DNA from: a virus
Lineage: Duplodnaviria; Caudoviricetes
Virus record (IMG/VR): IMGVR_UViG_3300028615_000096
Location: 1-56,609 of that record
Reading direction: 5' to 3' (one strand)
DNA: 56,609 nucleotides
The notes under the pieces are model-generated. The model made no database searches. It was not told the origin of the DNA and worked only from the letters and a program-made list of their open reading frames with translations. Below, one piece after another: positions 40,648-56,389 of the stretch (positions are counted from its first letter, which is position 1; the number at the start of each line of letters is the position of its first letter). The position numbers were made by a program, and so were the translations under genes.

Positions 40648-41344
40648 TGGCAAGGAGAAGTTGAAGGAGACCCTGATGGGGATGGAGTCTCCTGTGCGTC
40701 AGTCTGAGCGTCCCCCTCCTGATCCCCCACCGGCAGAGTCCACGGTGGACAGCACCAAGCTCTTGGAGGCTTGGCAGCTGAACGTCTCCACCATGCGCAG
40801 CCTCATCGAGCACTTGGACGCGGCACAGCTTGACAACGCACAGACCCGCTCCGACAACAAGACGACGCGGTGGCTCACGCTGAGCGCTGCCGCAGTGGTC
40901 GTCGTCATCGGCGCCGTCGTGCTGTGGCGCGTAGAGACCGCGTCTCAGAGCGTGGGTGTGCTGACAGCTGCTGCACAGGCCGCGGACGCGGAGCTGGACA
41001 CCGTGCGGGATCAGCTGAGTGCGGTGCTCACGGCGGTGCAGGCCACCAACGAGGCCGAGTTGGAGGAAGAGCTGGCTGCAGCCGTGTCCGATGCTGACGC
41101 GCACCCTCCCCTGGAGGCACCTGCGCCCAAGGTGGCCGCGATCAAGGCGCGCGTAGAGGCGCAGGTGGCGTCCATCCAGGCCGAGAAGAAGATGGCCGAG
41201 TCCGCACCCACCGCACCGGAAAAGAAGACCCGGCTGGAGAGGGTGCGGCGTAAGGCCAAGGCACTCAAAGCGAAGGCGGCGAAGATGCCGGTGCCGCTGG
41301 ACGGCGGTGAAGACAGCCCGCTGCGCGCGCTGGACGACTTCTGA
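40631..41344 (+). CDS. Single-TM coiled-coil membrane protein
   Basis: WLTLSAAAVVVVIGAVVLWR TM segment; GGAGG RBS. Confidence 0.7.
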   Translation: MADDPSGKEKLKETLMGMESPVRQSERPPPDPPPAESTVDSTKLLEAWQLNVSTMRSLIEHLDAAQLDNAQTRSDNKTTRWLTLSAAAVVVVIGAVVLWRVETASQSVGVLTAAAQAADAELDTVRDQLSAVLTAVQATNEAELEEELAAAVSDADAHPPLEAPAPKVAAIKARVEAQVASIQAEKKMAESAPTAPEKKTRLERVRRKAKALKAKAAKMPVPLDGGEDSPLRALDDF

Positions 41345-42478
41345 TCACCACTCCCCGTCGCGCACCGTGTCCGTGCTGGCCAGGAGCACCGGATAGCCCT
41401 CCGCCGGGCTGTCGTCCTGCTGCCCCTCGAAGCCGTGCTCCTTGTCCTTCTGGCCCACGGTCTTCACGTTGGTGAGCGTCTCGCTGGCCGGCACGTCACC
41501 CGCTCCACCGTCGCTCACCTGGTAGTACGGGCCGTTGTAGTCCCCGGCGCCCAGAGGGCTGGCCGGCGCCTCCTCGCCCGTGATCTTCTTCCAGAGCGTG
41601 GCGTCCACCATGTGGATGAAGAGGCGGCCGGCCCCGGAAGCGTCCCAGGTGTCGATGCCGTGCGGGTCCGGGTAGATCTTCTGGACCATCTCGCCGCCCG
41701 CGCCCAAGCCCATCTGCGCACCCTTGTGCACCAGGCTCTTGCGCTGCGGCTGCATGCCAGCGGAGCGCATCACACCTGCCGTGGGCGCCGCGCTGCTGTA
41801 CACGCTGTTGATCGCCGCTCCGATCATGGCGTCCCCGTCGTGCACTTCGCCCATGCCCTGCAGGTGGAACACACCGCCCTCGATCGGATCGGACGCGCTC
41901 TGTCCGCGCGGGCCGCTGCGCTGCTTCTTGAGGAACTTGTCCGTCGCCGGCACCACCAGTAGCTGGAGGCCGCCGAACTTCTCCTCCCCGGAGACCTGCC
42001 CCTCGACCGTGTAGCCCTTGCCCATGGCGGTGGCGACGAACTGGCGGATCTTCCCTTCGCCCGTGTTGAAGCCGTCGAGCCAGGGCTGGGGCGGCGCCAC
42101 CATGTAGTCCTGGCGCGGGTTCTTGCTGTCGCTCTCATCCGCCGGCGCCAGTTCCGGCGACCAGGGCTTGCCGCTGACGGCGTTGATCTTGCCCGCCGCC
42201 ACCTTCACCGCGCACGGGAAGCGGTAGTTCCGGGTGAAGCCCAGCCACAGAGCCTCCCGCTCGTACATGGGCAGGAAGATCCCGCCGTGCTTCACCCACT
42301 CACCCGGGACCTTGTCCCGGTAGTCATCTACCCGCTTCACGGGGAACACGCCCACGGAAGGCGGCAGGGCGTGCGTCTTGCCGTCCTCGGGCAACCGCAC
42401 CGTGCGGTGGAGCGTCACGGTGAAGCTCCCCTTGGGGTGCTTGAAGATCACGTTGCCGTTCTGCGCTTCGATTTCCAT
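41345..42478 (-). CDS. Conserved uncharacterised protein (RTxRxPxDG...QPWLDG family)
   Basis: RTVRLPEDGKTHALPP, FLPMYEREALW, QPWLDGF, GYTVEGQV.G.E..GGLQ, MGLGAGG.M.Q.IY.D motifs of a family I recall from bacteria and fungi. GAGG RBS before ATG 42478. Confidence 0.85.
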   Translation of the reverse strand: MEIEAQNGNVIFKHPKGSFTVTLHRTVRLPEDGKTHALPPSVGVFPVKRVDDYRDKVPGEWVKHGGIFLPMYEREALWLGFTRNYRFPCAVKVAAGKINAVSGKPWSPELAPADESDSKNPRQDYMVAPPQPWLDGFNTGEGKIRQFVATAMGKGYTVEGQVSGEEKFGGLQLLVVPATDKFLKKQRSGPRGQSASDPIEGGVFHLQGMGEVHDGDAMIGAAINSVYSSAAPTAGVMRSAGMQPQRKSLVHKGAQMGLGAGGEMVQKIYPDPHGIDTWDASGAGRLFIHMVDATLWKKITGEEAPASPLGAGDYNGPYYQVSDGGAGDVPASETLTNVKTVGQKDKEHGFEGQQDDSPAEGYPVLLASTDTVRDGEW

Positions 42479-42486
42479 GCCCAGCC

Positions 42487-42690
42487 TCACCATTCTCCGT
42501 CACGGACGGTCTTGCGTGCCTTGCCTAGCACGCGTTGCATTTGATCCGGCAGCGGGCTGATTCCCGCCGCCGCGTTCAGGATGGCCAAGCACCATGCGTG
42601 GCGGGTCATGCCGCAGGCTTCAGCAGCTGCCTCCCAGGCATCCGCTTCGATCTCGCGTGGCTTCACTGTCACGTTGGTGCGATCCGTCAT
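42487..42690 (-). CDS. Small ribbon-helix-helix-like regulator
   Basis: 67 aa: N-terminal strand (TNVTVK) then WEAAAEACGMTRHAW..AIL helices; leaderless start after a promoter with a palindrome. Confidence 0.65.
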   Translation of the reverse strand: MTDRTNVTVKPREIEADAWEAAAEACGMTRHAWCLAILNAAAGISPLPDQMQRVLGKARKTVRDGEW

Positions 42691-42696
42691 GCTGCC

Positions 42697-42724
42697 ATGG
42701 TAACCATATATGGTTACCCGTCAA
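42697..42724 (-). promoter_or_regulatory. Leftward sigma70-like promoter containing a 20-bp perfect palindrome (operator)
   Basis: Minus strand TTGACG-16 nt-TACCAT-6 nt-ATG; palindrome GGTAACCATATATGGTTACC at 42699-42718. Confidence 0.7.
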
Positions 42725-42732
42725 CTACTCTC

Positions 42733-42761
42733 TTGACACCCGCTGGCGGCGTGCCTACCTT
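42733..42761 (+). promoter_or_regulatory. Rightward sigma70-like promoter for the tRNA-like RNA cluster
   Basis: TTGACA-17 nt-TACCTT. Confidence 0.75.
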
Positions 42762-42769
42762 CAGGTCAT

Positions 42770-42860
42770 GCAGTTGGATTGACCGCCGCGGCTTGAAGCC
42801 GCGCTCCCGCAAGGGGCAAGTCAACACCCGCGCGCCGCAAGGCCCTGCGCGGGCTACTGC
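42770..42860 (+). ncRNA. Structured leader RNA
   Basis: TTGAC/GTCAA stem enclosing CGCGGC-ttgaa-GCCGCG and a GCAA-tetraloop hairpin; second arm CCCGCGC/GCGCGGG with GCAA loop. Confidence 0.55.
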
Positions 42861-42865
42861 TTTCA

Positions 42866-42943
42866 GTGCCAGAGGCCCAATCGGACGGGCGGCCGGACTA
42901 ATCACCCGGACGGCTGCGGGTTCGAACCCCGCCTGGCGCACCA
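42866..42943 (+). tRNA. Atypical tRNA-like RNA (9-nt loop ACTAATCAC; nominal AAT)
   Basis: Acceptor GTGCCAG/CTGGCGC+ACCA, D arm, T arm GCGGG-TTCGAAC-CCCGC; irregular anticodon arm. Confidence 0.7.
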
Positions 42944-43058
42944 CTGCGTGGAGTCCCGGAAGCGGCAGGACCGGGGAGGGGCGTTGCTTCCCCTCTGGCT
43001 GGGGTTGTGAGCGCTCAGAAGTCCAGCACGGGTTCGAATCCCGCGCGCGCAGTGACCA
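42942..43058 (+). ncRNA. Oversized tRNA-like RNA
   Basis: CACTGCGTG/CGCGCAGTG+ACCA, long D-like arm, GAGGGG/CCCCTC arm with 8-nt loop, long extra arm, GGTTCGAATCC T loop. Confidence 0.65.
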
Positions 43059-43060
43059 AT

Positions 43061-43146
43061 GGAGACGTAGCTCAGTTGGCAGAGCACCGGTGAAGCGCCG
43101 CGCGCCGATCCGGAGGTCGGAGGTTCAAGTCCTCCCGTCTCCCCCA
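43061..43146 (+). tRNA. tRNA-like RNA with 17-19-nt anticodon loop, no assignable anticodon
   Basis: Perfect GGAGACG/CGTCTCC+CCCA, canonical D and T arms; CCGG-tgaagcgccgcgcgccgat-CCGG. Confidence 0.8.
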
Positions 43147-43185
43147 TGCACCTGGTCTGCTCCGAAAGGGGCGGGGGTGCGCCAA

Positions 43186-43267
43186 GCAGGGGTAGCTCAG
43201 TTGGTTAGAGCGCCGTGGTTGATCACCACCACGGAGGTCGGAGGTTCGAGTCCTGCCCCCTGCGCCA
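43186..43267 (+). tRNA. tRNA-like RNA with 7-bp anticodon stem and 8-nt loop
   Basis: GCAGGGG/CCCCTGC+GCCA, canonical D arm; CCGTGGT-tgatcacc-ACCACGG. Confidence 0.8.
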
Positions 43268-43268
43268 T

Positions 43269-43610
43269 TTACTCCGTCAGGTCCGGCGGTGCTTCGTGAA
43301 CCCCGCTCGCTGGCTCCTGCTTCTCTGCGGTGCCCTCTTCGAGCAACTTCACATTCCACAGCGGGATCGGGGTGTAGACCCTGATCTGCCAGCCGCCGGG
43401 CTCGTAGTTGTCCTGCCCCAGCATGGGCTCGTAGTCGACCTCCAGAATGACGTCGCCGTATTGCCGTGCCTCTTCGAGGTCACGAGCCAGGTAAGTGCAG
43501 CGCGCCACTGGCTTGCCGGTGATCGGACTGCGTCCCCGATCGCCGTGGAGCGCGCCCTGCTTCTGGATGCGTTCCCACGCCTCGCGCGTGGTGCCGTGGT
43601 ACCAGACCAC
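43269..43610 (-). CDS. Small ADP-ribosyltransferase-fold protein (Tpt1/KptA-like NAD-binding lobe)
   Basis: WYHGT....ERI...G, TYLA.D...A..YG.VILEV, W....PIP motifs. Confidence 0.65.
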   Translation of the reverse strand: MVWYHGTTREAWERIQKQGALHGDRGRSPITGKPVARCTYLARDLEEARQYGDVILEVDYEPMLGQDNYEPGGWQIRVYTPIPLWNVKLLEEGTAEKQEPASGVHEAPPDLTE

Positions 43611-44051
43611 TCAGCTGGCCTCCCGCAGCTCGTGCACCGCCGGCATGCCGGCCAGGTGGTACGCGCCCGCCTCTTCGACGGTGACGCGCATCTCACCCTC
43701 GCACAGCGGGCACAGGCTGATGGGCTCTCCATTGTAGGAGACGCCGTGCGTGTGCTGGACGGCGGGGCAGCGCACCGTGCGGCCCGCGCGCGCCAGCTCC
43801 GCAGCAGAGGTGAAGCTCAGGGTGCGCGGCAGGTCCACGCCGCGGTCTTCCATGGACCAGTCGTAGTGGGCCTCGTCCCACGTGTACTCGTTCTCGGCCT
43901 CCGCATCCGCGACTGCTGCAGGCAGGTCGTGGTGGAGATCTTGCAGCGTGCGCGCCGCCTGGCCGCCCTTGAAGCCGTTGGCCTTGTGCGGCTTGCAGGC
44001 CAGGCAGCCTGCCCGGCGGTTCTTGGGCCGCCCTCGTTTGTGGTTTGCCAT
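43611..44051 (-). CDS. Hypothetical protein with two CxxC motifs
   Basis: 146 aa; MANHKRGRPKNRRAGCLACKPHK; CPLC; abuts the ART-like gene. Confidence 0.6.
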   Translation of the reverse strand: MANHKRGRPKNRRAGCLACKPHKANGFKGGQAARTLQDLHHDLPAAVADAEAENEYTWDEAHYDWSMEDRGVDLPRTLSFTSAAELARAGRTVRCPAVQHTHGVSYNGEPISLCPLCEGEMRVTVEEAGAYHLAGMPAVHELREAS

Positions 44052-44065
44052 CGTAGGAGGACCTT

Positions 44066-44386
44066 GTGCAGAAGCTCTACATCGTAGTCAGGAACGACAT
44101 CAAGCCGGGGCTCATGGTAGCCCAATCTTGCCACGCGCTCCGCGCCTTTGTGGAGGAGCACCCGGACGTGGACAAAGAGTGGTTCGCCACCTCGAACAAC
44201 ATCGTCTGCCTGGAGGTTGCGAACGAGGTGGAGTTGCAGGCCCTCGTCGATCGCGTCGCCGGTGCCGACGTGGAGGTGAGCACCTTCACGGAGCCGGACC
44301 TGGACGATCAGATGACGGCCGCCGCCTTTGGGCCGCGCGCGGCCGCGCTGCTGTCCAACCTGCCCCTGGCGTTGCGCGTCGCCTAG
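44066..44386 (+). CDS. pth2: Peptidyl-tRNA hydrolase, Pth2 family
   Basis: KLYIVVR.DI.PG..VAQSCHA...W...IVCLEV...FTEPDL...TAAAFGP...L.L; AGGAGG RBS. Confidence 0.88.
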   Translation: MQKLYIVVRNDIKPGLMVAQSCHALRAFVEEHPDVDKEWFATSNNIVCLEVANEVELQALVDRVAGADVEVSTFTEPDLDDQMTAAAFGPRAAALLSNLPLALRVA

Positions 44387-45318
44387 TCCGTGGGCTCCCA
44401 CGTCAGCGTGGTGGTCACGTTGCACATGGGGGCATCTAGCGGCTGCAGCACGCCGAACTGGATGCGCAGGTAGGGCTCCAGGCTGGTCTCCCAGTCCGCA
44501 CACTGCACTGTGAGATCGGCCACGGTGTAGGTGGTGCCCACCCGAGGGCCCCAGAACACGCAGTGGTTGTGGCCGCCCACGGGGAACAGGTCCCCGCCCT
44601 CGCACAGCACCGCGTCACACTGCACGCGCAGCTCTGAGACGTGTGCCGTGGTCACCAGGCGGACGTGCGCCGGCCCGCGGTTGGTCCGGTCCACCGTGTT
44701 CATCCGGAGGAAGTCGCGATCCTCCTCCGTGTCGAGGGTGTGCTCGAAGACCATCTCCCCGCTGTCGCCATGCAGCGCGTCCAGGTTGAGCGGCGTGCTG
44801 TTGGTGTCTCCACCCGCACCCACCTCGTAGGCGTCCTCCTCACACGTGTCCGCGTCGTAGGGCCCCGGGTCTGGTTCAGGCTCCGGGTCTGGGTCCGGGT
44901 CCGGGTCTGGTTCAGGCTCCGGCTCCGGTTCAGGCTCCGGCTCCGGGTCTGGTTCAGGGTCCTGGGCCGCCGGGTCCTGGGCCGCCGGGTCCTGCGTGCT
45001 GGCGTCCTGCGGCTCCTCGACAGGCTGGGGCGCCGGAGGCGGCGGTGTGGTGGGCTGCGGGCCTGGGGCGGGCTGTGGCGCCGGCTGGGCGGGCTCCTGG
45101 GCGTCCTGCGGCTCTGGGGCGGCTGAGGGCGGCGGTGCGGCCCCTCCAGCAGTCCCTTCCGGCTCCTGCCAGGCCGGCGGCGGCGCCTGCAGCGGGCCGG
45201 TACTGGTCGGTGCCGCGCCGGTGGCGGAGGCGCCCGGGACGGGTTCCGTTACGGTTGTGGGAGGCTGCGACTCAAAACCACACCCCGCCGCGAAAAGGAT
45301 TGCAACCCATACACGCAT
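44383..45318 (-). CDS. Lipoprotein with Pro/Glu/Asp linker and Cys-rich C-terminal domain
   Basis: Lipobox-like MRVWVAILFAAG-C; (PE/PD)n tract; CEEDAYE motif. Confidence 0.8.
   Translation of the reverse strand: MRVWVAILFAAGCGFESQPPTTVTEPVPGASATGAAPTSTGPLQAPPPAWQEPEGTAGGAAPPPSAAPEPQDAQEPAQPAPQPAPGPQPTTPPPPAPQPVEEPQDASTQDPAAQDPAAQDPEPDPEPEPEPEPEPEPDPDPDPDPEPEPDPGPYDADTCEEDAYEVGAGGDTNSTPLNLDALHGDSGEMVFEHTLDTEEDRDFLRMNTVDRTNRGPAHVRLVTTAHVSELRVQCDAVLCEGGDLFPVGGHNHCVFWGPRVGTTYTVADLTVQCADWETSLEPYLRIQFGVLQPLDAPMCNVTTTLTWEPTD
44867..44995 (-). repeat. Hexamer (PE/PD) and 15-bp (QDPAA) coding repeats
   Basis: GGCTCC/GGGTCC/GGTTCA hexamers and tandem GGGTCCTGGGCCGCC. Confidence 0.85.
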
Positions 45319-45680
45319 GCACTAATTGTGTGCACTTGTGCGAGGTTGTGCAAAGCTGCGCATTTGCACAGGTGATACATGGTCAGATTCGGGGGATGTG
45401 GTGGTGCGCGTGCTCGCGCCACCGTGGGAACGCGGGGCAGTGCGCGCGCGCCGGGCGCCGCGCCGGCAGCGGGGGCGGGGTAGACCCGCTTCCGCGGGTT
45501 CACGTCCAGCACGACCTCGTTGCTGGCTGCCGAGTGGTAGGGGGCGATGTGGATGACCACCGCCGGCTGGAACTGGTTGCCCCGCCGCAAGCACTCCCCG
45601 GTCGGACAGCTGCAGTACCCGCAGTCGCCCCCGATGTAGACCGCCGTGCCGTCGTAGCTGTTGGGAACCACCGCGATCAT
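45249..45680 (-). CDS. Possible Cys-rich hypothetical protein
   Basis: ATGA coupling with upstream stop; MIAVVPNSYDG...CGYCSC..GEC; its 3' end overlaps the lipoprotein start, so uncertain. Confidence 0.4.
   Translation of the reverse strand: MIAVVPNSYDGTAVYIGGDCGYCSCPTGECLRRGNQFQPAVVIHIAPYHSAASNEVVLDVNPRKRVYPAPAAGAAPGARALPRVPTVARARAPPHPPNLTMYHLCKCAALHNLAQVHTISACVYGLQSFSRRGVVLSRSLPQP
45347..45370. promoter_or_regulatory. Inverted repeat upstream of the lipoprotein gene
   Basis: TGTGCAAA-8 nt-TTTGCACA in an AT-richer patch with extra TGTGC words. Confidence 0.45.
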
Positions 45681-46327
45681 GCTTTGCGGAACAGCTGCTG
45701 CGCGTGCCACTGCACGCTGTCGGCCTGGGAGTTCGCAAGCCACGCCTCGTGGTGGCTGTGGTCCCGATCCTTGTCGGGCTCCGAGAACTCCCCGAGCAGT
45801 GCGTGCAGCATCTCGTGGATGACCGGCTCGCCGCGCAGCATCAGGTCGTCGATGATGTCCTTGCTGCAGAGGACCACGGCGGCTGGGATGCCAGCGCCCA
45901 CCGGAGCGCCTGTGTACGCCAGGTACGCGGCTGCGGTCTGGATCGAGGGGAAGGGGCTGGCAAGGAAGACGGCTTCCGGCACGAAGCGCACCACCACGTG
46001 GTGAAGCACGCTCACGTTGCTGTTGATCTGCTTTGCCCAGCTGCTGCCCGCAGCCCACACGGCGGCTGCGCAGGTGTGCGCGATCAGCTCTTCGGCTTTC
46101 GTGCGCGCCGGCGAGGCGCCGACCTTGTTGATGCCCGGCGCGGTTGTGTCGCTGAACACCACATCGATCGTGTACGGCCCGCGCTTCATCGTGTAGCGCG
46201 TGCCGTCCGGGATGGTGGGGCGGCGCCCCAGCCACAGCAGCCACAAGGGCAGCGCGATGAGCAGCATCGCAGTGGGCACCAGGAAGATGACCCACTGCCA
46301 CCAGGTGAGATCGGAAAGCTCCAGCAT
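45677..46327 (-). CDS. Membrane-anchored zincin-like metallopeptidase
   Basis: N-terminal TM; VIHEMLHALL...DH motif. Confidence 0.7.
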   Translation of the reverse strand: MLELSDLTWWQWVIFLVPTAMLLIALPLWLLWLGRRPTIPDGTRYTMKRGPYTIDVVFSDTTAPGINKVGASPARTKAEELIAHTCAAAVWAAGSSWAKQINSNVSVLHHVVVRFVPEAVFLASPFPSIQTAAAYLAYTGAPVGAGIPAAVVLCSKDIIDDLMLRGEPVIHEMLHALLGEFSEPDKDRDHSHHEAWLANSQADSVQWHAQQLFRKA

Positions 46328-46980
46328 CAGGTGCCTACCTTTTCTTCCGTGACGTCTCCGGTCCGCCCGTCAACCCAGACGAACTCGCCCTCAGCGCCTA
46401 CGGGGAAGTGATCGCGGCACTGCACGCAGAACGTAGCACCGTAGAAGCCCGGGTCCTTCGCGTAAGTCTCCGCGATTGCCTGGGACATCTTGGTGGTGGT
46501 CTTGCACTTCTCGTGGAAGTAGACCGTGCGCACGGGCCGCACGAAGCCGCTCCTGCGCTCGTCCTCCGTGAGCACCCAGTAGGAGCTGTACTGGCCGGTG
46601 GCTGGGTTGAGCGCGCCTGGCGCGCCTGTGTCCAGGTAGCGCGCGTCCACACCGTCCGTGCCCGTCACGCCCAGGCCCGCCGTGTTGATGGGCTGCGCTG
46701 CGCCGGGGCACTCCCCAATCTTGCAGCCACAGAACCAGCACGTGTCCCCGTTGTCCGCGGCCGAGCAGACATGAACGCGCGCGCACTTCTCCACCGGGTG
46801 CTTCATGGCCTCTTCGACGCACGCCTCGCACAGCAGGTGCCGGAAGAACGGCCAGGGTGCGGGCTCCCTGAACGCGGCCGCGACCTTGGGCTGACACTCC
46901 GCGCAGAAGCCGATCTCGCGGTAGGTCAGCACGTGGCCTTCACGGATCAACTCAGGGATAGACTTCTCATCTTCGGCCAT
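46327..46980 (-). CDS. Cys-rich zinc-binding phage protein
   Basis: GGAGG RBS before ATG 46980; several CxxC; GFVRPVR..Y.H..C...T.M...IAETYA.DP.FYG.TFC..C domain. Confidence 0.75.
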   Translation of the reverse strand: MAEDEKSIPELIREGHVLTYREIGFCAECQPKVAAAFREPAPWPFFRHLLCEACVEEAMKHPVEKCARVHVCSAADNGDTCWFCGCKIGECPGAAQPINTAGLGVTGTDGVDARYLDTGAPGALNPATGQYSSYWVLTEDERRSGFVRPVRTVYFHEKCKTTTKMSQAIAETYAKDPGFYGATFCVQCRDHFPVGAEGEFVWVDGRTGDVTEEKVGT

Positions 46981-47120
46981 GAGAACCTCCCGAAGGAGCC
47001 CCGACACTACCTGTCCTGTCGGCTCGGGGCCACACCGATGCTTGCCGCTTCGTTCGTCCAAGGGGGGAATGGACGGTTTTCGCTGCCCAGGGGGGATGGG
47101 CGCGGATAGCGGCCGGACTC

Positions 47121-47873
47121 TTATGCTACGCGCTGACCAGACAGACCCTCCACGATCTCGCTCGGCAGCTTACCCGTCCGCATGAAGTGGTCCAGGTGCT
47201 GCATGTCCAGCGTGCCAGGATCGGTCTTGGCACGCTTGATGTTCAGGTGGCCGATGGCGCCGCGGAAGCTCTGCCAGTCGATGACGCCGGGCTCCGTGCA
47301 CACGTTGGCTTCGTACGTCTCGATGTTGTCCACCATGAGGCGGTTGAGCGCGCAAAGGGTGGCCACCTGTGCGGGGTAGAACCCGTAGAGGTTCCGCTTC
47401 TTGCCGTGGATCTTCGCCGTGTAGAACGGACGGGGGCCCAGGTCGAGCTTGTGGGCGCGCGGCTTCTTCCACTTCCTGGGGTTGAGGATCTTGCGCTGGC
47501 CCTGGTTCACCACCTCGACGCCCCAGCTGGTCTTGTTGGCCGCGCCCGCGTCTGCGGTGTCCACCTTGATGGGGTCGCAGAACTGGAAGAGGCTGCCCAG
47601 CGGGGTGATAGCGAACTCCACGCCCAACTTCCGGTTGTTGAGGACGCGGAACATGGTCTCCACCGCGTTCTCGCTGCCCGTCCAGTGGATGACGCCGTGG
47701 ATGATCGGCACCCGGCGCGGCTTGTTGTAGCCGGTGCCGATCTTGAACTCCATGCCGTGCTCCCAGCGCCAGTCGTCGCCAGCGCGCACTGCGCCGAACA
47801 CAGGGATGGGGTGTCCGGTGATCGGGTGGTTCAGTGGGATGATCTTCCCGTCGAGTAGTACGCCGTCCGCCAT
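47121..47873 (-). CDS. Endolysin, N-acetylmuramoyl-L-alanine amidase (Amidase_2)
   Basis: VIHWTG, N.TSWGVEVVN, AQVATL, IGH....AKTDPG zinc-amidase motifs. Confidence 0.88.
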   Translation of the reverse strand: MADGVLLDGKIIPLNHPITGHPIPVFGAVRAGDDWRWEHGMEFKIGTGYNKPRRVPIIHGVIHWTGSENAVETMFRVLNNRKLGVEFAITPLGSLFQFCDPIKVDTADAGAANKTSWGVEVVNQGQRKILNPRKWKKPRAHKLDLGPRPFYTAKIHGKKRNLYGFYPAQVATLCALNRLMVDNIETYEANVCTEPGVIDWQSFRGAIGHLNIKRAKTDPGTLDMQHLDHFMRTGKLPSEIVEGLSGQRVA

Positions 47874-47988
47874 GGGCTTCCCCTATGTCTTGTGCAGGTG
47901 TCCGCAACCGTAGGCACCTAATGTAGTCGGAAGTGGGCTTTTCGTAAAACAGCCGACGTGCAAGACTTCCACACCGAGGAGGAGTGCC

Positions 47989-48369
47989 ATGGAGGATGTT
48001 CTCGCACACTGGCCATTCGTGGCTGCGTCTCTGATCTTCGCCATGTTCGGACAAGTGGTAAAGGGCACGTTGTTCACCAGGGACAACATCCTGAAGTACA
48101 AGGGAAATGGGCCCGCGTGGCTGGGAGAGCTACTCTGGTGGGGTCGAAAGACCATGCCTGTGCACCCAGTCGTGGCCGGCATTCTGCTGGGTTTTGTGCC
48201 TGGCATGCCCGTGGGCCCTGGTGTGGATGCGGGTGCTGCGACGGTCTTGTACTTTGGTGCCGCAGGGATGGCGTCCACCTGGGCCTTCGCGTTGCTACGG
48301 CAGTTGGCGAAGCGGCAGGGTATCGAGCTGGATATTCCGCGCCAGACAGATCCGCCGCCTCCCAATTAG
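47989..48369 (+). CDS. Holin-like multi-TM protein
   Basis: 126 aa with about 3 hydrophobic helices; GAGGAG RBS; divergent from the endolysin. Confidence 0.6.
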   Translation: MEDVLAHWPFVAASLIFAMFGQVVKGTLFTRDNILKYKGNGPAWLGELLWWGRKTMPVHPVVAGILLGFVPGMPVGPGVDAGAATVLYFGAAGMASTWAFALLRQLAKRQGIELDIPRQTDPPPPN

Positions 48370-48378
48370 GAGGCTCAC

Positions 48379-48723
48379 GTGAAAAAAGCCTGGCTCTGGG
48401 TCAAGAAGCACATCACGTCAATCCTCGGCGTGATCGTTGCCGCCTTGGTAGGTTGGCTCGCGTGGGGCTCCATGAAGCGCCGGACGGGCAAGCTGAAGGA
48501 CGAGGTCGCGCTTGCCAAGGCAGAGCGTGACCTGAAGGCCCTCAACGTGCGCCGCGATACCGCGGTGGAACGCATGGGGGAGAAGGCGGCGGACGCCCGC
48601 GCGCTGAAGTCAGAGCTGCGCGACACCAAGAAGAAGATCGTGGAGATCCGCGAGCGCAAGCCCATCGTGGAAACGCTCACAGACGACGAGCTGGACAAGC
48701 GCTTGGAGAAGCTGGGGTACTGA
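48379..48723 (+). CDS. Inner-membrane spanin-like protein
   Basis: N-terminal TM followed by a charged coiled coil. Confidence 0.55.
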   Translation: MKKAWLWVKKHITSILGVIVAALVGWLAWGSMKRRTGKLKDEVALAKAERDLKALNVRRDTAVERMGEKAADARALKSELRDTKKKIVEIRERKPIVETLTDDELDKRLEKLGY

Positions 48724-48920
48724 TGGCGCTGCCGCAACAACCAACACCTCTGATTCCGGAGTGCGATGAGCTTCGGGTGGACGTTCTTGTCAAGGACGGC
48801 CACAAGGAGCCCGGCACGCGCCGCTTCTTCCGCGATGGTGTTGAGGTCTTCAACTACACCACGGAAGAAGCACTGCAGCTCCTGCGCGAGGGGTGGACGG
48901 TGCGGGAGGAGCCTGCGTGA
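48723..48920 (+). CDS. Small hypothetical protein
   Basis: 65 aa, coupled at both ends. Confidence 0.55.
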   Translation: MALPQQPTPLIPECDELRVDVLVKDGHKEPGTRRFFRDGVEVFNYTTEEALQLLREGWTVREEPA

Positions 48921-49372
48921 AGGTCATCGCTACGATCCTGTGCCTGGCGCTCATGCCCACGCCCGTGTGGGCGACTGAACCGGCGGGTGCGGAAGCTGCC
49001 GCAGCGGAGGAAGCTCCGCGCCGCAAGGTCATGGAGGTCGACGGCCAGCGCGGCGTGTGGTTCCGCGACGACGTGGTCGAGAAGATCATGAAGGACAAGG
49101 AGCTGCTGCTGGAGCATGAGAAGGCGCTCAAGCAGGCAGAGGCTGCGATCGTGGCGCAGGAGGAAGTCGAGAAGGCTTGCCGTGCAGCCCTCGGGTACTC
49201 GCAGGAGTCCGAGGAGCTGGCCAGGACGAACCTGGAGACGGCACTACGGCGCGCGAGGGAGGCCGAAGAGGACCGGGATGGGGTCTTGGCGGGGAAGCCT
49301 GCGGTCTGGTTGGGTGTTGGGCTACTGGCCTCCCTCGCGCTTGCCGTGGTGGTGGACAAGATTCAGGAGTGA
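48917..49372 (+). CDS. Exported coiled-coil protein with C-terminal TM (spanin-like)
   Basis: GGAGGAG RBS; signal peptide MKVIATILCLALM..VWA; C-terminal hydrophobic helix. Confidence 0.6.
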   Translation: MKVIATILCLALMPTPVWATEPAGAEAAAAEEAPRRKVMEVDGQRGVWFRDDVVEKIMKDKELLLEHEKALKQAEAAIVAQEEVEKACRAALGYSQESEELARTNLETALRRAREAEEDRDGVLAGKPAVWLGVGLLASLALAVVVDKIQE

Positions 49373-49374
49373 TC

Positions 49375-49887
49375 ATGTCGAAGCTGATCGTGCATCTGTT
49401 CACGCTCCCGTTCATGCCGGTGAGCTATCTCTACGTGCTGGGCGCGTGCCTCATCGGGCTGGCGCACAAGGTCTCGTTCACGGACTGGGTGCTGACCGCG
49501 CAGTGGCGCCCGTGGTTTGCCGAGCGCTGGCGCTACTCGACCACGGTGGGCCTGGGCATCATCTACCAGCCGGACAGCCGCACCAACACGCGCATCGTCA
49601 ACCACGAACATGTGCACGTGCGCCAGCACCAGGACGAGATGCTCCGGGCGCTGTTGATCGGCCTGGGCGTGTACGCCGCCACCGGTTCCTGGATCACGGG
49701 GCTGTGCATCTGGCTGCTGGGCGGCGCGTTCCGCCTCACCAACTTCATCACCGCCGGACTCCGCTTCGGCTGGGCCAACGTCTACCGGGACAGCGAGCAC
49801 GAGCGCAGCGCCTACGCGCAGACGGATCTGTGGACCGGTGGGAAGTCCTGGAGCGACTTCCGCGACGGGGCGAGAAATAGTTCTTGA
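49375..49887 (+). CDS. Membrane protein with HExxH motif
   Basis: AGGAG RBS; IVNHEHVHVRQ and E.SAYA; several TM helices. Confidence 0.7.
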   Translation: MSKLIVHLFTLPFMPVSYLYVLGACLIGLAHKVSFTDWVLTAQWRPWFAERWRYSTTVGLGIIYQPDSRTNTRIVNHEHVHVRQHQDEMLRALLIGLGVYAATGSWITGLCIWLLGGAFRLTNFITAGLRFGWANVYRDSEHERSAYAQTDLWTGGKSWSDFRDGARNSS

Positions 49888-49966
49888 CATCCTCGGCGCA
49901 AGCACTCAGCTTGCGATCTGTGGACGCGCTCTATACAGCGCAGGTGACACCTGCTTCCACACCCAT

Positions 49967-50049
49967 CCGGGTGAGGGGAACGGTATCCCAAGCCGGCTGT
50001 AAACCGGTGCGTTCGCGCAGTGCTGGTTCGAATCCAGCCACCCGGACCA
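49967..50049 (+). tRNA. tRNA-Tyr(GTA)
   Basis: Loop CT-GTA-AA; long variable arm; CCGGGTG/CACCCGG+ACCA. Confidence 0.88.
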
Positions 50050-50350: not shown

Positions 50351-50737
50351 ATGCGCAACGGACCCTACGAGATGGTACTCGTGCCGGAGGGCTACCCCGG
50401 TAAGCGGTACAGAGGCAGGTACTGCTACGAGCACCACTTGGTGTGGTGGCAGAACACAGGACGCCTCGTACGTCCTGGCTACTTGTTGCACCACAAGAAC
50501 GAGAATAAGCGCGACAACCGCTTCAGCAATCTAGAGGAGATCACCAGAGCAAAACACACTTCGCAGCACGCCTCTGAACGCGCACCTGATCTGATTCAAG
50601 TCTCGTGTGGTTGGTGCTCCAAACCGATGGAGCTGAAGCCGCACGTCTACAAGGAACGCATGAAGAGCAAGCCCCACGGACTGCTGTTTTGCAGTCGTAG
50701 CTGCGGCGCGAAGCACCAACATTCCGAGGTAGCATAA
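50351..50737 (+). CDS. HNH homing endonuclease with C-terminal zinc finger
   Basis: EHHLVW...HHKNENKRDNRFSNL...H; CGWC...FCSRSC. Confidence 0.9.
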   Translation: MRNGPYEMVLVPEGYPGKRYRGRYCYEHHLVWWQNTGRLVRPGYLLHHKNENKRDNRFSNLEEITRAKHTSQHASERAPDLIQVSCGWCSKPMELKPHVYKERMKSKPHGLLFCSRSCGAKHQHSEVA

Positions 50738-51243: not shown

Positions 51244-51300
51244 CCGCGGCCTAGGTCGCAACGTTCTCTGACAACCGAATACGTTGCCAAGTACACACGG

Positions 51301-51438
51301 GGAGCCGTGGGCACAGCGGGTAGCCGCGCGCTATGCGAAAGCGCGGGTCCGGGTGGTCACGGCCTCCGTAAGGCCACCGTGGGCGCCACGGTCCTGGCGT
51401 GACTGCTAGGACGTCTGTGCCGGTCACGGTGGCCTCCA
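51301..51438 (+). ncRNA. Structured inter-tRNA RNA 2
   Basis: CCGTG/CACGG and GGCACAG/CTGTGCC closing stems around a multibranch loop. Confidence 0.65.
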
Positions 51439-51440
51439 AT

Positions 51441-51797: not shown

Positions 51798-51814
51798 CCC
51801 GGGTAGAGTCGGGC

Positions 51815-51962
51815 ACGCCAGCAAGAGGGCTGGCGTTGGTCGGCTCGTGCTGCGCACCCACGTAAGCCGCAGCGCCTGTTCCAGAGTTTGGGTGCACCAG
51901 CCCTTCAGGCTGGCCAGCAGTCAGGCTCGCAGCACTTGGTGCCGGAGCGCAGCGGAGCGACC
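51815..51962 (+). ncRNA. Structured inter-tRNA RNA 3
   Basis: ACGCCAGC/GCTGGCGT hairpin, then GGTCG-GCTC-GCTGCGC / GCGCAGC-GAGC-GACC closing stem with inner GCACCCA/TGGGTGC and CCAGCC/GGCTGG arms. Confidence 0.6.
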
Positions 51963-51996
51963 CTTCGATCTGTGACGCAGTAGGTGCTGCACCTAT

Positions 51997-52343: not shown

Positions 52344-52880
52344 ATGACGGCACGGACTCTGGTGTTGGATCAGGGGTACCAACCCCATCGAATAGTCAGC
52401 TGGCGGCGAGCCGTGACCATGCTGTTCGCCGGCAAGGTAGAGGTGGTCGAGGAGTACGACGAGGAGATCAGATCGGTCACCATCTCCATCAAGATGCCCG
52501 CCGTCGTGCGGCTCATCAGGAAGGCGACCGGCCGGCCGCCCAAGGTCCGCTTCAGCCGGATCAACATCATGGCGCGGGACAACTTCCGCTGCCAATACTG
52601 CGGCAAGCGCGGGACGCGCGGGGAGCTGAACCTGGACCACGTGCTGCCGCGGGCACAGGGAGGCACTAGCCGGTGGGAGAACATCGCCACCAGCTGCATC
52701 CCCTGCAACACCCAGAAGGGAAACAGAACGCCCGAGCAGGCGGGCATGAAGCTGCGGAAGCAGCCCAGACGCCCGCACAGCTTGCCGGAGCTGACGATCC
52801 GGTTGGAGTACGGAGACAGCATCCCGGATGCCTGGGCCTCGTACTGCTACTGGAACCTCTCCATCGAGGAGGGGAGCTGA
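52344..52880 (+). CDS. HNH endonuclease (McrA-like) with PLMP-like N-terminus
   Basis: AAGGAGG RBS; RDNFRCQYCG...LDHVLPR..GG...WENI..SC..CN..KG; N-terminal LVLD.GY.P...SW.RA..ML..GKVEVV. Confidence 0.92.
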   Translation: MTARTLVLDQGYQPHRIVSWRRAVTMLFAGKVEVVEEYDEEIRSVTISIKMPAVVRLIRKATGRPPKVRFSRINIMARDNFRCQYCGKRGTRGELNLDHVLPRAQGGTSRWENIATSCIPCNTQKGNRTPEQAGMKLRKQPRRPHSLPELTIRLEYGDSIPDAWASYCYWNLSIEEGS

Positions 52881-53347: not shown

Positions 53348-53424
53348 TGGCCCGTAGCTCAGTCAGTCAGAGCGCCCGCCTGATAAGCGGGAGGTCGTGG
53401 GGGCAGAACCCGCCGGGCCAACCA
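53348..53424 (+). tRNA. tRNA-Ile(GAT)
   Basis: Loop CT-GAT-AA; atypical T loop GGCAGAA; CCA. Confidence 0.85.
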
Positions 53425-53817: not shown

Positions 53818-53896
53818 AGCACGCAGGGGACTCATGGGCGCTAGAGCGGCCGGGCCCCCTCGCCCGCTCAACAGCGTCGGTGTCCTGCGTGCTTTT
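53818..53896 (+). ncRNA. Long irregular hairpin RNA
   Basis: AGCACGCAGG/CCTGCGTGCT, GCGCT/AGCGT and GAGCGG/CCGCTC stacked stems with internal loops. Confidence 0.6.
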
Positions 53897-54046: not shown

Positions 54047-54181
54047 GGTGTGTGGAGGGTATCTTGCTGCGATCCGGGGAGTTGGCACGCTCCGCCGGGG
54101 TAGTCACGGTTGAAAGTTGCCCGTACTTGTTTGAAAGCAAGCAAGGTTAGGTCAGCCTAGGCAGGGGGCGTTCCACACACC
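54047..54181 (+). ncRNA. Structured inter-tRNA RNA 4
   Basis: GGTGTGTGGA/TCCACACACC perfect 10-bp closing stem around about four hairpins. Confidence 0.7.
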
Positions 54182-54184
54182 TTT

Positions 54185-54260
54185 GATCGCGTAGCTCAGT
54201 CGGAAGAGCATCGGTCTCCGAAGCCGAAGGTCGTGGGTTCGACCCCCACCGCGATCGCCA
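54185..54260 (+). tRNA. tRNA-Arg(CCG)
   Basis: Loop CT-CCG-AA; CCA. Confidence 0.92.
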
Positions 54261-54547
54261 CGCCGTAGAGCAAGTGTCGTTCAACTGGTGGCGCAGGAAG
54301 GCAGGGGACGCCCTGTTGGATCGCGTCGGCAATTGCGGGGCACGCAGTAGGGAAGCTGGATCTGCCACCACGACTGCACGCGATGCAGAGCCCGCACAGT
54401 GTGTGGCGTGGGACCTCGGGTCGCGCGTTTGCAGGGCTTGTAGCTGCGCGCGGAAGTGGTCAAGCCGCGAAGGTGGAACTGCTGGTGGAAAAGCTCGCTG
54501 CTGTGGGTCAGCAGAGGATGCAGGTGGGAATCCTGCCGGCGTGAACA
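54259..54547 (+). ncRNA. Large tRNA-shaped RNA with about 235-nt structured insert
   Basis: CACGCCG/CGGCGTG acceptor, TA, D arm GAGC/GTTC, T-like arm GCAGG-tgggaat-CCTGC, tail AACA. Confidence 0.7.
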
Positions 54548-54549
54548 AT

Positions 54550-54622
54550 GCCTGTGAAGCTCAAGTGGCCGAGCACCCGTTTCGTACTCGGGAGGTAGTG
54601 GGTTCGACTCCCATCGCAGGCC
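54550..54622 (+). tRNA. tRNA-Thr(CGT)
   Basis: Loop TT-CGT-AC. Confidence 0.88.
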
Positions 54623-54664: not shown

Positions 54665-55042
54665 TTGCCCTACAAAGACCCAGAAGCGCGTAGAGCTTAC
54701 CAACGGAATCGGAACCGTAAGCGGCGCGAGGAGTGGTTGGCAGCTAACGGACCCTGCGCTGTGTGCGGGTCCTGGGAGAAGCTGGAAGTCGATCACGTTG
54801 ATCCGGCAACGAAACTGAACCACAGAGTTTGGTCGTGGAGCGCAGTGCGCATGAAAGCGGAGCTAGCGAAGTGCCAGGTGCTGTGCCGCGTGCACCACAA
54901 GGCAAAAACCACGGCTGACCGGTTCAGCAGAGTGCAGCACGGGACGCGTCACATGTACGAGCGCTACAGGTGCAGGTGCTCGAAGTGTTGCGCTGCCAAG
55001 GCGGCACACAACGCGCTTCGTGATGAGCGCGGCTATAGATAA
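54665..55042 (+). CDS. HNH endonuclease
   Basis: CAVCGS.EKLEVDHVDP.TK...ELAKCQVLCRVHH..KT; HGT..MY...CRC..C. Confidence 0.88.
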   Translation: MPYKDPEARRAYQRNRNRKRREEWLAANGPCAVCGSWEKLEVDHVDPATKLNHRVWSWSAVRMKAELAKCQVLCRVHHKAKTTADRFSRVQHGTRHMYERYRCRCSKCCAAKAAHNALRDERGYR

Positions 55043-55046
55043 TCAA

Positions 55047-55121
55047 CGGGGTGTGGCGCAGTGGAAGCGCGCCGGTTCGGGGAACCGGAGGTCGTGGGTT
55101 CGAGTCCCACTACCCCGACCA
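55047..55121 (+). tRNA. tRNA-Pro(GGG)
   Basis: Loop TC-GGG-GA; C1-G72; CCA. Confidence 0.9.
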
Positions 55122-56313: not shown

Positions 56314-56389
56314 GGCTGTGTATCCCAACGGCAGAGGACGCCGGCTAAGAACCGGTCCAGTGTGGGTTCGAATCCCTCCGCAGCCACCA
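56314..56389 (+). tRNA. tRNA-Leu(AAG), short variable loop
   Basis: GCCGG-CT-AAG-AA-CCGGT; CCA. Confidence 0.85.

What the first reader, a model, noticed from the sequence alone, without database searches (positions are those of the whole stretch)
54259..54547. 290-nt RNA with tRNA acceptor, D and T arms and a large domain in place of the anticodon arm
Seen: perfect 7-bp CACGCCG/CGGCGTG, canonical TA linker, D stem GAGC/GTTC, T-like arm GCAGG-TGGGAAT-CCTGC and an AACA tail. Between them lie about 235 nt of stems (GGTGGC/GCCACC, CTGCA/TGCAG, CGCGG/CCGCG, CTGCTG/CAGCAG). Known: tmRNA has this overall plan but with G3-U70, no D stem and a tag ORF; none is evident here, and I see no group I intron core. 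Inference: the structural complement of the permuted RNA, i.e. a tRNA elbow used as a chassis for a large RNA domain.
Basis: partly seen in the sequence, partly recalled or inferred. Interest (0 to 1): 0.8.

Follow-up and report, generated by a model that had tools for sequence, protein, structure and literature searches.

The report
Proline-tRNA frame carrying 213-base insert
A phage tRNA cluster holds a 286-base RNA gene that is a complete proline-type tRNA cloverleaf with a 213-base structured domain inserted in its D-loop, and it matches no known RNA family.

Summary
The element fills the gap between tRNA-Arg(ccg) and tRNA-Thr(cgt). A tRNA frame at the gap's ends arises in 9 of 200,000 dinucleotide shuffles, and in 1 of 200,000 with an anticodon-type arm in register.

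The interpretation needs correcting. An anticodon-like arm is present (54498-54514). In a diverged soil-metagenome relative both of its strands changed while 5 bp and a 7-nt loop were kept. The best frame is a full cloverleaf with D stem 54268-71/54493-96, G26 and a 5-nt variable loop. 24 of 30 checked positions (22 conserved core positions plus proline identity elements) are canonical, with a reciprocal swap at the elbow (C19-G56). The 213-nt insert (54279-54491) sits in the D-loop. With the insert removed in silico, ARAGORN calls tRNA-Pro(ggg).

Rfam finds no tmRNA, group I, GOLLD, ROOL or YrlA match, even at E<=10 on the insert alone.

Best reading: a tRNA-derived frame that gives tRNA-type processing and stability to a retained RNA domain of unknown activity. 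Rivals: a D-loop intron, or a decaying tRNA gene. Evidence is thin, with one relative and no expression data.

The parts
54185..54260 (+). Upstream tRNA-Arg(ccg). The body ends at 54257, and the encoded CCA at 54258-60 overlaps the candidate's first two bases.
   Evidence: Rfam tRNA 69.4 bits; ARAGORN; sequence
54259..54265 (+). Acceptor 5' strand CACGCCG (pos 1-7). C1-G72 is proline-type.
   Evidence: 7 Watson-Crick pairs with 54537-43; no X2 change
54266..54267 (+). U8 A9 connector
54268..54271 (+). D-stem 5' strand GAGC (pos 10-13)
   Evidence: Pairs with 54493-96 (4 Watson-Crick pairs) or with 54279-82 (3 Watson-Crick pairs + G.U)
54272..54278 (+). 5' part of the D-loop: A14, A15 ... U18, C19 in canonical numbering. 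U18/C19 are proposed partners of G55/G56.
   Evidence: the numbering is my inference from the standard tRNA scheme
54279..54491 (+). 213-nt insert (pos 21-233). No Rfam family, no paralog in the window, not coding.
   Evidence: Rfam; no paralog; no codon periodicity in X2 changes
54279..54282 (+).
54289..54328 (+). Insert hairpin. Lower stem 54289-94/54323-28 and upper stem 54300-06/54311-17.
   Evidence: Predicted in the free and both constrained folds. X2 upper stem: A-U to U-A at 54303/54314 and G.U to G-C at 54316. X2 lower stem: two changes keep pairs (54326, 54327) and one breaks the terminal pair (54323).
54472..54495 (+). Two tandem 12-nt units GGTGGAA-type, resembling the T-arm 5' strand plus loop. 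This is the best-conserved part of the insert.
   Evidence: repeat families D1, D2. The stretch 54458-54498 shows no X2 difference, and X3 holds 54469-54526 with 1 difference.
54492..54492 (+). A21
54493..54496 (+). Distal D-stem 3' strand GCTC (pos 235-238)
   Evidence: Only all-Watson-Crick partner of GAGC among 220 four-mers. The constrained fold is -127.2 against -125.4 kcal/mol for the local D stem.
54497..54497 (+). G26
54498..54514 (+). Anticodon-like arm: 5 bp plus the 7-nt loop GTGGGTC (U33, GGG, U37)
   Evidence: In X2 both strands changed while 5 bp and a 7-nt loop are kept, with 3 pairs changed on both sides (worked out by hand). In register with the T arm.
54515..54519 (+). Variable loop AGGAT (A44, G45, G46, A47, U48)
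54520..54536 (+). T arm GCAGG-TGGGAAT-CCTGC. U54, R57 and A58 are kept; positions 55-56 are GG.
   Evidence: unique among the array's T-loops. X2 has G57 to A, still a purine.
54537..54543 (+). Acceptor 3' strand CGGCGTG
54544..54544 (+). Discriminator A73. No CCA is encoded.
54545..54549 (+). 5-nt spacer before tRNA-Thr, variable in X2 (one substitution, one deletion)
54550..54622 (+). Downstream tRNA-Thr(cgt)

Best explanation
This is a real RNA gene derived from a proline-type tRNA. It is transcribed with the phage's tRNA array (inferred).

Its two ends and its 3' third fold into a normal class-I tRNA body:
- a 7-bp acceptor stem with C1-G72 and A73
- a 4-bp D stem
- a 5-bp anticodon-type arm
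- a 5-nt variable loop
- a 5-bp T arm

A 213-nt structured domain is inserted in the variable pocket of the D-loop, next to the elbow. The elbow contact is rewired (C19-G56, U18.G55).

Proposed mechanism, all steps inferred:
1. The tRNA body makes the transcript a substrate for tRNA processing. RNase P would cut at 54258/54259, and the 3' end would be trimmed at or just after A54544, perhaps with CCA addition.
2. The body protects the RNA from decay.
3. The inserted domain stays in the mature ~286-nt RNA and is the working part.

The molecule is not an ordinary decoder. Its T-loop lacks U55-C56, position 37 is U, and the anticodon loop differs between relatives. The activity of the domain is unknown. 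My best guess is that it binds a host or phage factor that recognises tRNA.
For: - Exact fit in the inter-tRNA gap, with a frame that shuffles almost never give: 9 and 1 of 200,000.
- Only 1 of 13 gaps in this array, and 0 of 25 gaps in two other phage arrays, fit the architecture.
- With the insert removed in silico, ARAGORN at default settings calls tRNA-Pro(ggg).
- C1-G72, A73, G35 and G36 are proline determinants (PMC9976931, passages). The array's two ordinary tRNA-Pro genes share C1-G72 and A73.
- 24 of 30 checked positions (22 conserved core positions plus 8 proline identity checks) are canonical. The failures are a reciprocal 18/19-55/56 swap and U37, which fails two checks.
- The distal D-stem partner is the single all-Watson-Crick four-mer of 220, at the canonical place.
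- A relative in a soil metagenome (X2) has the same gene order, tRNA-Arg - element - tRNA-Thr.
- In X2 there are 19 events over 190 covered nt but 0 in the 36 frame-stem nt (3.6 expected, P=0.027). The neighbouring tRNA-Thr diverges as much, 9 of 72.
- One insert pair changed on both sides, and the anticodon-like arm was rebuilt with pairing kept.
- X2 changes show no codon periodicity.
- No known family matches.
- No promoter-like or terminator-like site lies on the + strand near it.
Against: - No expression, end-mapping or probing data. No RNA run is listed.
- Only one diverged relative is available. It consists of two short contigs at about 3x depth that cover pos 1-103 and 200-286. A third run holds just 58 nt. 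Pos 104-199 have no comparative data.
- Pattern scans of viral, metagenome and genome collections gave no further homolog. BLAST searches of phage and plasmid records and of five related virus records matched nothing on the element.
- The whole-molecule fold z-score is modest (-2.18). The unconstrained MFE does not draw the anticodon-like hairpin, and the constrained folds cost 6.6-8.4 kcal/mol.
- The X2 changes are clustered: 10 in 33 nt, plus a 17-nt hairpin swap. That could reflect recombination patches rather than selection on pairs.
- Two D-stem partners exist, and X2 does not distinguish them.
- Ten junction pairs with U or C at -1 and G at omega would give a valid tRNA, so splicing is not excluded.
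Confidence: 0.5

Rival explanations
1. It is a tRNA-Pro-like gene interrupted by a self-splicing intron (group I-like or an unknown kind) in the D-loop. The insert is removed, and the product is a ~72-80-nt tRNA.
For: - Ten junction pairs with U or C at -1 and G at omega give an ARAGORN-valid tRNA-Pro(ggg), for example D-loops of 8-11 nt.
- The insert size of about 210 nt is in the range of small group I introns (recalled).
- By eye, a J3/4-P4-like motif (AAT-TGCGGG at 54331-39) and a P3-P8-like helix order can be drawn.
- Free-standing HNH genes lie in the array.
Against: - No group I match at E<=10 on 501 nt, on 6.7 kb or on the insert alone.
- The helix-order threading is no better than chance: 87 of 100 shuffles thread, 23 of 100 give as many threadings, and 60 of 100 give as many pairs.
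- Known bacterial tRNA group I introns lie in the anticodon loop, and tmRNA ones in the T-loop (preprint 10.1101/2020.01.27.920355, text part 1 read).
- I found no convincing P1/IGS by hand.
- The would-be product has G55 G56 and U37, its anticodon differs in X2, and a canonical tRNA-Pro(ggg) already exists at 55047.
Confidence: 0.12
2. It is a dead tRNA gene. A tRNA-Pro copy was disrupted by an insertion or by local duplication debris, is now decaying, and has no function of its own beyond being spacer in the array.
For: - Universally conserved T-loop and position-37 residues are lost.
- The anticodon loop is not conserved between relatives.
- The element is very rare in the collections.
- T-arm-like 12-nt tandem units in the insert look like duplication debris.
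- A second proline (ggg) tRNA makes this copy redundant.
Against: - All 21 frame base pairs are intact: 20 are Watson-Crick with the distal D stem.
- The frame stems carry 0 X2 changes against 3.6 expected.
- Changes at 18/19 and 55/56 are reciprocal rather than random.
- There is a compensatory pair in the insert hairpin, and the anticodon-like arm was rebuilt with pairing kept.
- The element is as conserved as the neighbouring functional tRNA-Thr.
Confidence: 0.15
3. It is a divergent phage tmRNA. The tRNA-like ends would be charged and the internal part would serve as a tag template in trans-translation.
For: - The overall plan is shared: tRNA-like ends and a large middle part.
- Some phages with large tRNA sets carry tmRNA genes (recalled).
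- At ARAGORN thresholds lowered to 70-80% a 'permuted tmRNA' call appears.
Against: - Position 3-70 is C-G, not G.U.
- The RNA has a D stem and an anticodon-type arm, which tmRNA lacks.
- No tmRNA family in Rfam matches, and ARAGORN at default settings makes no call.
- The low-threshold call reaches beyond the searched stretch and spans both neighbouring tRNAs.
- No tag-like frame is present. The only in-frame stops are at pos 90-92 and 183-185, and the peptide ending is untypical.
Confidence: 0.02

Closest known systems
tmRNA (SsrA)
   Same: The 5' and 3' ends form a tRNA-like acceptor/T-arm module around a large internal RNA. Like tmRNA, it would probably be processed by tRNA enzymes (inferred).
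   Different: - No G3.U70 pair.
- It has a D stem, an anticodon-type arm and a variable loop.
- No tag frame.
- No model match.
Bacterial tRNA genes with group I introns (anticodon loop) and tmRNA genes with T-loop introns
   Same: A tRNA gene is interrupted by about 200 nt of structured RNA, and removing the interruption restores a tRNA.
   Different: - The site is the D-loop or hinge, not the anticodon loop or T-loop (text).
- No catalytic-core match.
- The frame is not a canonical decoder.
GOLLD and ROOL RNAs of phages
   Same: They are large structured phage RNAs of unknown function, found near tRNA islands. tRNAs are sometimes covalently embedded in the GOLLD linker (10.1101/2024.12.08.627333, passages).
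   Different: - The topology is inverse: here the tRNA is outside and the domain is inside.
- The size is 286 nt, against more than 500-800 nt.
- No Rfam match.
Engineered 'tRNA scaffold' for recombinant RNA expression
   Same: A tRNA body serves as a processing and stability frame for a foreign RNA domain. I saw only the search listing and the start of the abstract for PMC3753655; the design details are recalled.
   Different: The engineered scaffold replaces the anticodon stem-loop (recalled). Here the anticodon-type arm is kept and the D-loop carries the domain. This one is natural and conserved in a relative.
YrlA / bacterial Y RNA-like RNAs; T4 'species 1 and 2' stable RNAs
   Same: These are non-decoding RNAs with tRNA-like modules. 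The T4 RNAs are encoded within a phage tRNA cluster and matured by tRNA-processing enzymes. All of this is recalled, not from a call.
   Different: - In YrlA the ends form the Ro-binding stem and the tRNA-like part is internal.
- The Rfam YrlA model gives no match on the candidate.
- I could not compare the T4 RNAs, because no sequence is held.

Membership tests
tmRNA | G3.U70 alanine identity pair in the acceptor stem | tested here: not met
   Position 3-70 is C-G (54261/54541)
tmRNA | Recognised by tmRNA covariance models or ARAGORN | tested here: not met
   No match at gathering or at E<=10. ARAGORN at default settings makes no call. Only at 70-80% thresholds does a call appear, and it runs off the stretch.
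tmRNA | No D stem and no anticodon arm; a long helix P2 takes their place | tested here: not met
   A D stem and a local anticodon-type hairpin are present, and the hairpin is supported by X2
tmRNA | Internal tag reading frame ending in a stop | tested here: inconclusive
   Stops occur only in one frame, at pos 90-92 and 183-185. The frame between them has no typical tag ending.
Group I intron in a tRNA gene | Catalytic core recognised by a group I covariance model | tested here: not met
   No Intron_gpI match at E<=10 in three searches, including the insert alone. The bacterial-tRNA-specific model of the preprint is not available here.
Group I intron in a tRNA gene | Insertion in the anticodon loop (tRNA) or T-loop (tmRNA) | tested here: not met
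   The insert lies between the D-stem strands or at the D/anticodon hinge. Known sites are taken from the preprint text.
Group I intron in a tRNA gene | U (rarely C) at -1 and G at omega, with exons that join into a valid tRNA | tested here: inconclusive
   Ten junction pairs satisfy this and are called tRNA-Pro by ARAGORN. However, 73 of 168 arbitrary junctions are also called tRNA.
Group I intron in a tRNA gene | P3-P4-P6-P7-P3'-P8-P7' pseudoknotted core | tested here: inconclusive
   Threadings exist (105) but are no better than shuffles: 87 of 100 shuffles thread, and 23 of 100 give as many threadings
Group I intron in a tRNA gene | Self-splicing | not testable with these tools
   Needs an in vitro splicing assay
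Canonical elongator tRNA (RF00005) | Detected by tRNA models in the native sequence | tested here: not met
   Neither Rfam nor ARAGORN makes a call on 54259-54547, also in ARAGORN's intron mode on the + strand
Canonical elongator tRNA (RF00005) | 7/4/5/5-bp cloverleaf with canonical connectors | tested here: met
   With the insert left out, ARAGORN at default settings calls tRNA-Pro(ggg).
Canonical elongator tRNA (RF00005) | Conserved tertiary-core nucleotides (U8-A14, R15-Y48, 10-25-45, 13-22-46, 26-44, A21, U54-A58, G53-C61) | tested here: met
   All of these are present. 24 of 30 checked positions are canonical overall.
Canonical elongator tRNA (RF00005) | G18 G19 in the D-loop and U55 C56 in the T-loop | tested here: not met
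   The candidate has U18 C19 and G55 G56. All 34 correctly parsed tRNAs of the window have TTC[G/A]A.
Canonical elongator tRNA (RF00005) | Anticodon loop with U33 and purine 37, and an anticodon conserved among orthologs | tested here: not met
   U33 is present but position 37 is U. In X2 the loop has a different middle triplet.
GOLLD / ROOL | Match to the Rfam models; length above 500 nt | tested here: not met
   No match. The element is 286 nt.
YrlA (Y RNA-like) | Match to RF02553; the ends form a Ro-binding stem and the tRNA-like module is internal | tested here: not met
   No match on the candidate. Its ends form an acceptor stem.

The most novel reading that the evidence does not exclude
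This is a new class of phage RNA: an 'elbow-decorated' tRNA. An intact, possibly CCA-tailed and proline-chargeable tRNA body (C1-G72, A73) has its D-loop replaced by a 213-nt domain. That domain carries two tandem T-loop-like GGUGGAA units next to a rewired C19-G56 elbow.

The RNA would present a genuine acceptor end and a fast-evolving anticodon-type hairpin to tRNA-recognising machinery such as a synthetase, RNase P, anticodon nucleases of host defence, or the ribosome. The bulky domain would block normal decoding. The RNA would therefore act as a decoy, sponge or sensor during infection rather than as an adaptor.
Probability: 0.2. Interest if true: 0.85.

Novelty: new variant of a known kind. 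Interest (0 to 1): 0.6.

Why it matters
tRNA-like RNAs that are not adaptors, such as tmRNA, Y RNA-like RNAs and viral tRNA-like ends, have each revealed a new way of using the tRNA shape. I did not find a natural tRNA body that keeps all four arms and its tertiary core while carrying a 213-nt domain in its D-loop. Six searches of the held paper library and Rfam 15 showed nothing like it.

If the domain is retained, this would be a natural counterpart of the engineered tRNA scaffold. It would also be a small, tractable relative, in concept, of the large phage RNAs that cluster with tRNA islands (GOLLD, ROOL), whose functions are unknown.

If the domain is spliced out, this would be the first bacterial or phage tRNA intron outside the anticodon loop.

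Either way it shows that 'empty' gaps in phage tRNA arrays can hide RNA genes that tRNA finders miss.

Tried and rejected
Homolog searches that gave nothing useful:
- Exact-pattern scans of viral contigs with four probes found 0 hits.
- The metagenome scan gave 1 hit, L045. It lies in a low-GC stretch that reads like an ordinary protein-coding gene, with no tRNA near the match, so it is a chance match.
- Two genome scans gave 0 and 3 hits. The 3 hits (L046-L048) are 31-40-nt matches in regions with long open frames, in unrelated bacteria with no tRNA nearby, so they are chance matches.
- blastn against phages matched only the flanking tRNAs. blastn against plasmids gave no match.
- Phage relatives found by sheath protein (15 loci) did not help. 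Five whole records had no DNA match. Of the three I fetched and scanned with ARAGORN, G001 and G003 have 0 tRNAs and G004 has 1, so they cannot hold an ortholog in an array.
- The HNH neighbour gave only hits of 36% identity or less.

Other negative or uninformative results:
- No RNA holder is listed among sequencing runs, so nothing can be said on expression. Parts of the element without X2 cover (54362-54457) carry no information.
- The window holds no paralog of the insert.
- Protein coding is rejected. X2 changes show no codon periodicity (4/7/5, 7/5/4, 5/4/7), and the indels shift the frame.
- An alternative acceptor 5' strand at 54322-28 is compatible with three X2 transitions. Its partners are G or U, so any transition keeps pairing, and this is not informative.
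- The group I threading I saw by eye is rejected as evidence.
- Flanking ORFs gave no context. Of 19 ORFs tested in Pfam, 17 had no family and 2 were HNH.
- Supplements of papers were not consulted. The covariance model in the supplement of the preprint read could bear on the intron rival.
Full report
**Setting**

The window is a 56.6-kb IMG/VR virus record, about 54% complete by CheckV's estimate. GC content is about 65%. It is a myovirus with a tail sheath, tape measure and baseplate. By its only full holder, it comes from a marine sediment metagenome.

From 49.9 kb to its end the window is a dense + strand tRNA array. ARAGORN finds 35 tRNA genes in the window, 32 of them in this array. Rfam finds 33 at the gathering threshold, including one that ARAGORN misses. 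Three HNH endonuclease genes are interspersed.

The finding fills the whole space between tRNA-Arg(ccg) and tRNA-Thr(cgt). tRNA-Arg has its body at 54185-54257 and an encoded CCA at 54258-60. tRNA-Thr starts at 54550.

**Observation**

The unconstrained MFE keeps the acceptor closure, the local D hairpin and the T arm. Its energy is only modestly better than shuffles: -133.8 kcal/mol, z -2.18, with 6 of 200 shuffles folding as well.

A bare descriptor (7-bp closure, abutting 5-bp/7-nt hairpin, D stem) is not rare. It occurs 5 times on the + strand and 0 times on the - strand, against 0-5 in ten shuffles. By itself the pattern proves nothing.

What is rare is the pattern sitting at the two ends of a gap between tRNAs. 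That happens in 9 of 200,000 dinucleotide shuffles of the gap. With a second 5-bp/7-nt hairpin 4-5 nt before the T arm it happens in 1 of 200,000.

Among 13 gaps of 110-900 nt in this window only this one fits. None of 25 gaps in the arrays of two other tRNA-rich phages fits.

**A relative**

Only the probable source sample holds the whole stretch. Laying contigs of two other runs showed a diverged relative in a soil metagenome, X2.
- One contig covers 54211-54361 with 11 differences.
- Another covers 54458-54621 with 16 differences and 5 gaps.
- The gene order tRNA-Arg - element - tRNA-Thr is therefore shared.
- A third run, X3, holds 54469-54526 with 1 difference.

These are short contigs at low depth, and 54362-54457 is not covered.

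**What the differences say**

- In the insert hairpin 54300-06/54311-17, the pair 54303/54314 changed on both sides (A-U to U-A), and 54316 turned a G.U into G-C.
- In the lower stem 54289-94/54323-28, two changes keep pairs and one breaks the terminal pair.
- The stretch 54498-54514 carries five substitutions, two 1-nt deletions and a 2-nt insertion. Worked out by hand, both strands of a local hairpin changed so that 5 bp and a 7-nt loop remain, with three pairs changed on both sides.
- That supports a local anticodon-type arm.
- The T-loop change is G57 to A, which keeps a purine.
- Over the 190 covered nt there are 19 events, but none in the 36 nt of acceptor, D and T stems (3.6 expected, P=0.027).
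- The neighbouring real tRNA-Thr differs at 9 of 72 positions, so the element is at least as conserved as a functional tRNA.
- The changes show no codon periodicity.

**The frame**

Of the 220 four-mers in the insert, only four pair fully with it, and only one by Watson-Crick pairs alone. That one is GCTC at 54493-96, which lies exactly one nucleotide (G26) before the anticodon-type stem. The constrained fold with this distal D stem is slightly better than with the local one (-127.2 against -125.4 kcal/mol).

With the distal D stem, the frame is a standard class-I cloverleaf. In canonical numbering, 24 of 30 checked positions fit (22 conserved core positions plus 8 proline identity checks), including:
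- U8-A14, R15-Y48, G10-C25-G45 and C13-G22-G46
- G26-A44, A21, U33, G53-C61 and U54-A58, and a purine at 57

The exceptions are U37, which fails two of the 30 checks (purine 37 and G37), and a reciprocal swap at the elbow. Positions 18/19 are U,C and positions 55/56 are G,G, which allows C19-G56 instead of G19-C56. The numbering and the swap are my reading, not a tool's.

All 34 tRNAs of the window that my simple parser registered correctly have TTC[G/A]A in the T-loop.

The insert is then 54279-54491 (213 nt), in the variable pocket of the D-loop next to the elbow. X2 has no change in either D-stem option, so the choice between them rests on statistics only.

**Identity**

With the insert removed in silico, ARAGORN at default settings calls tRNA-Pro(ggg). 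C1-G72, A73, G35 and G36 are bacterial proline determinants (PMC9976931, passages). The two ordinary tRNA-Pro genes of the array share C1-G72 and A73.

But G37 is missing, the array already has a canonical tRNA-Pro(ggg) at 55047, and in X2 the loop has a different middle triplet. The frame looks proline-derived, but it does not look like a conserved decoder.

**Known families**

Rfam 15 gives nothing on the element at gathering thresholds. It also gives nothing at E<=10 on 501 nt, at E<=5 on the 6.7-kb array, or at E<=10 on the insert alone. That covers tmRNA, group I, RNase P, GOLLD, ROOL and YrlA.

ARAGORN finds no tRNA or tmRNA there at default settings. In intron mode it finds none on the + strand. 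At 70-80% thresholds it gives only a call that runs off the stretch, plus a reverse-strand artefact.

**The intron rival**

Ten junction pairs with U or C at -1 and G at omega would give a valid tRNA, so the simple splice-site rule does not exclude an intron. However:
- Known bacterial tRNA group I introns sit in the anticodon loop (preprint).
- No core is detected.
- The group-I-like helix order I could draw by eye is worthless as evidence. 87 of 100 shuffles thread as well, 23 of 100 give as many threadings, and 60 of 100 give as many pairs.

**The insert**

Beyond the first hairpin, the predicted helices of the insert have no comparative support. Its best-conserved part (54458-54498, unchanged in X2; 54469-54526 held by X3 with 1 difference) contains two tandem 12-nt GGTGGAA-type units. 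These resemble the T-arm 5' strand plus loop.

Each unit has a five-letter motif that fits the T-loop pattern as I recall it (U, two free positions, a purine, A). That is a lead, not a result.

No paralog of the insert exists in the window. No promoter-like or terminator-like site lies on the + strand nearby.

**Verdict**

The element is very probably a real, structured, tRNA-derived RNA gene that tRNA finders and Rfam miss.

The most likely working model is a tRNA frame that gives RNase P and 3'-end processing and stability to a retained 213-nt domain placed at the elbow. The domain's own activity is unknown.

All mechanistic steps are inferred. The comparative basis is one fragmentary relative.

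Searches of the held literature showed no description of such an arrangement in bacteria or phages.

Noticed in passing
window 54047-54184: The 138-nt gap between tRNA-Gln(ctg) and tRNA-Arg(ccg) folds into a multi-branched structure closed by an 11-bp stem. With dinucleotide shuffles z is -3.75 and 0 of 200 fold as well; with mononucleotide shuffles z is -6.0. No Rfam family matches.
   Followed up: partly
window 51246-51440, 51800-51996, 53818-53896: Three further gaps in the array without a called tRNA fold much better than mononucleotide shuffles (z -5.1, -3.65 and -4.5). They may hold other unannotated RNAs.
   Followed up: no
window 53348-53421: Rfam calls a tRNA here (56.4 bits) but ARAGORN does not. 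Its anticodon loop reads CTGATAA (GAT, Ile). By my reading its T-loop is GGCAGAA, which would make it a second gene in the array with a non-canonical T-loop.
   Followed up: partly
window 42866-42943, 43061-43146, 56314-56389: These tRNA genes have A at position 34: Ile(aat) and two Leu(aag). Such anticodons are unusual for bacteria as far as I recall. The X2 relative's hairpin loop also has A at the corresponding place.
   Followed up: no
window 49967-50049: tRNA-Tyr starts with C and closes C1-G72. I recall that as the archaeal/eukaryal tyrosine type, yet the gene is 83 nt long, like the bacterial long-arm type.
   Followed up: no
window 54258-54260: The encoded CCA of tRNA-Arg(ccg) overlaps the first two bases of the candidate's acceptor stem. 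The two RNAs therefore cannot both keep these bases after a single RNase P cut, and one 3' end would need repair.
   Followed up: no
window 50351-50737, 52344-52880, 54665-55042: Three free-standing HNH endonuclease genes are interspersed in the tRNA array (Pfam HNH_3; HNH_5/HNH; phrog_4234).
   Followed up: partly
G001, G003, G004 (loci L027-L044): The closest long relatives by sheath protein (best-segment identity 66%, 58% and 53% for the three fetched records) carry 0, 0 and 1 tRNA genes. The 35-gene tRNA set (32 of them in the main array) is therefore a recent acquisition of this lineage.
   Followed up: partly
window 40600-49900: None of 17 long ORFs tested on either strand has a Pfam family. 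The AT skew turns negative at 42-48 kb, which suggests minus-strand genes of unknown function just upstream of the array.
   Followed up: no
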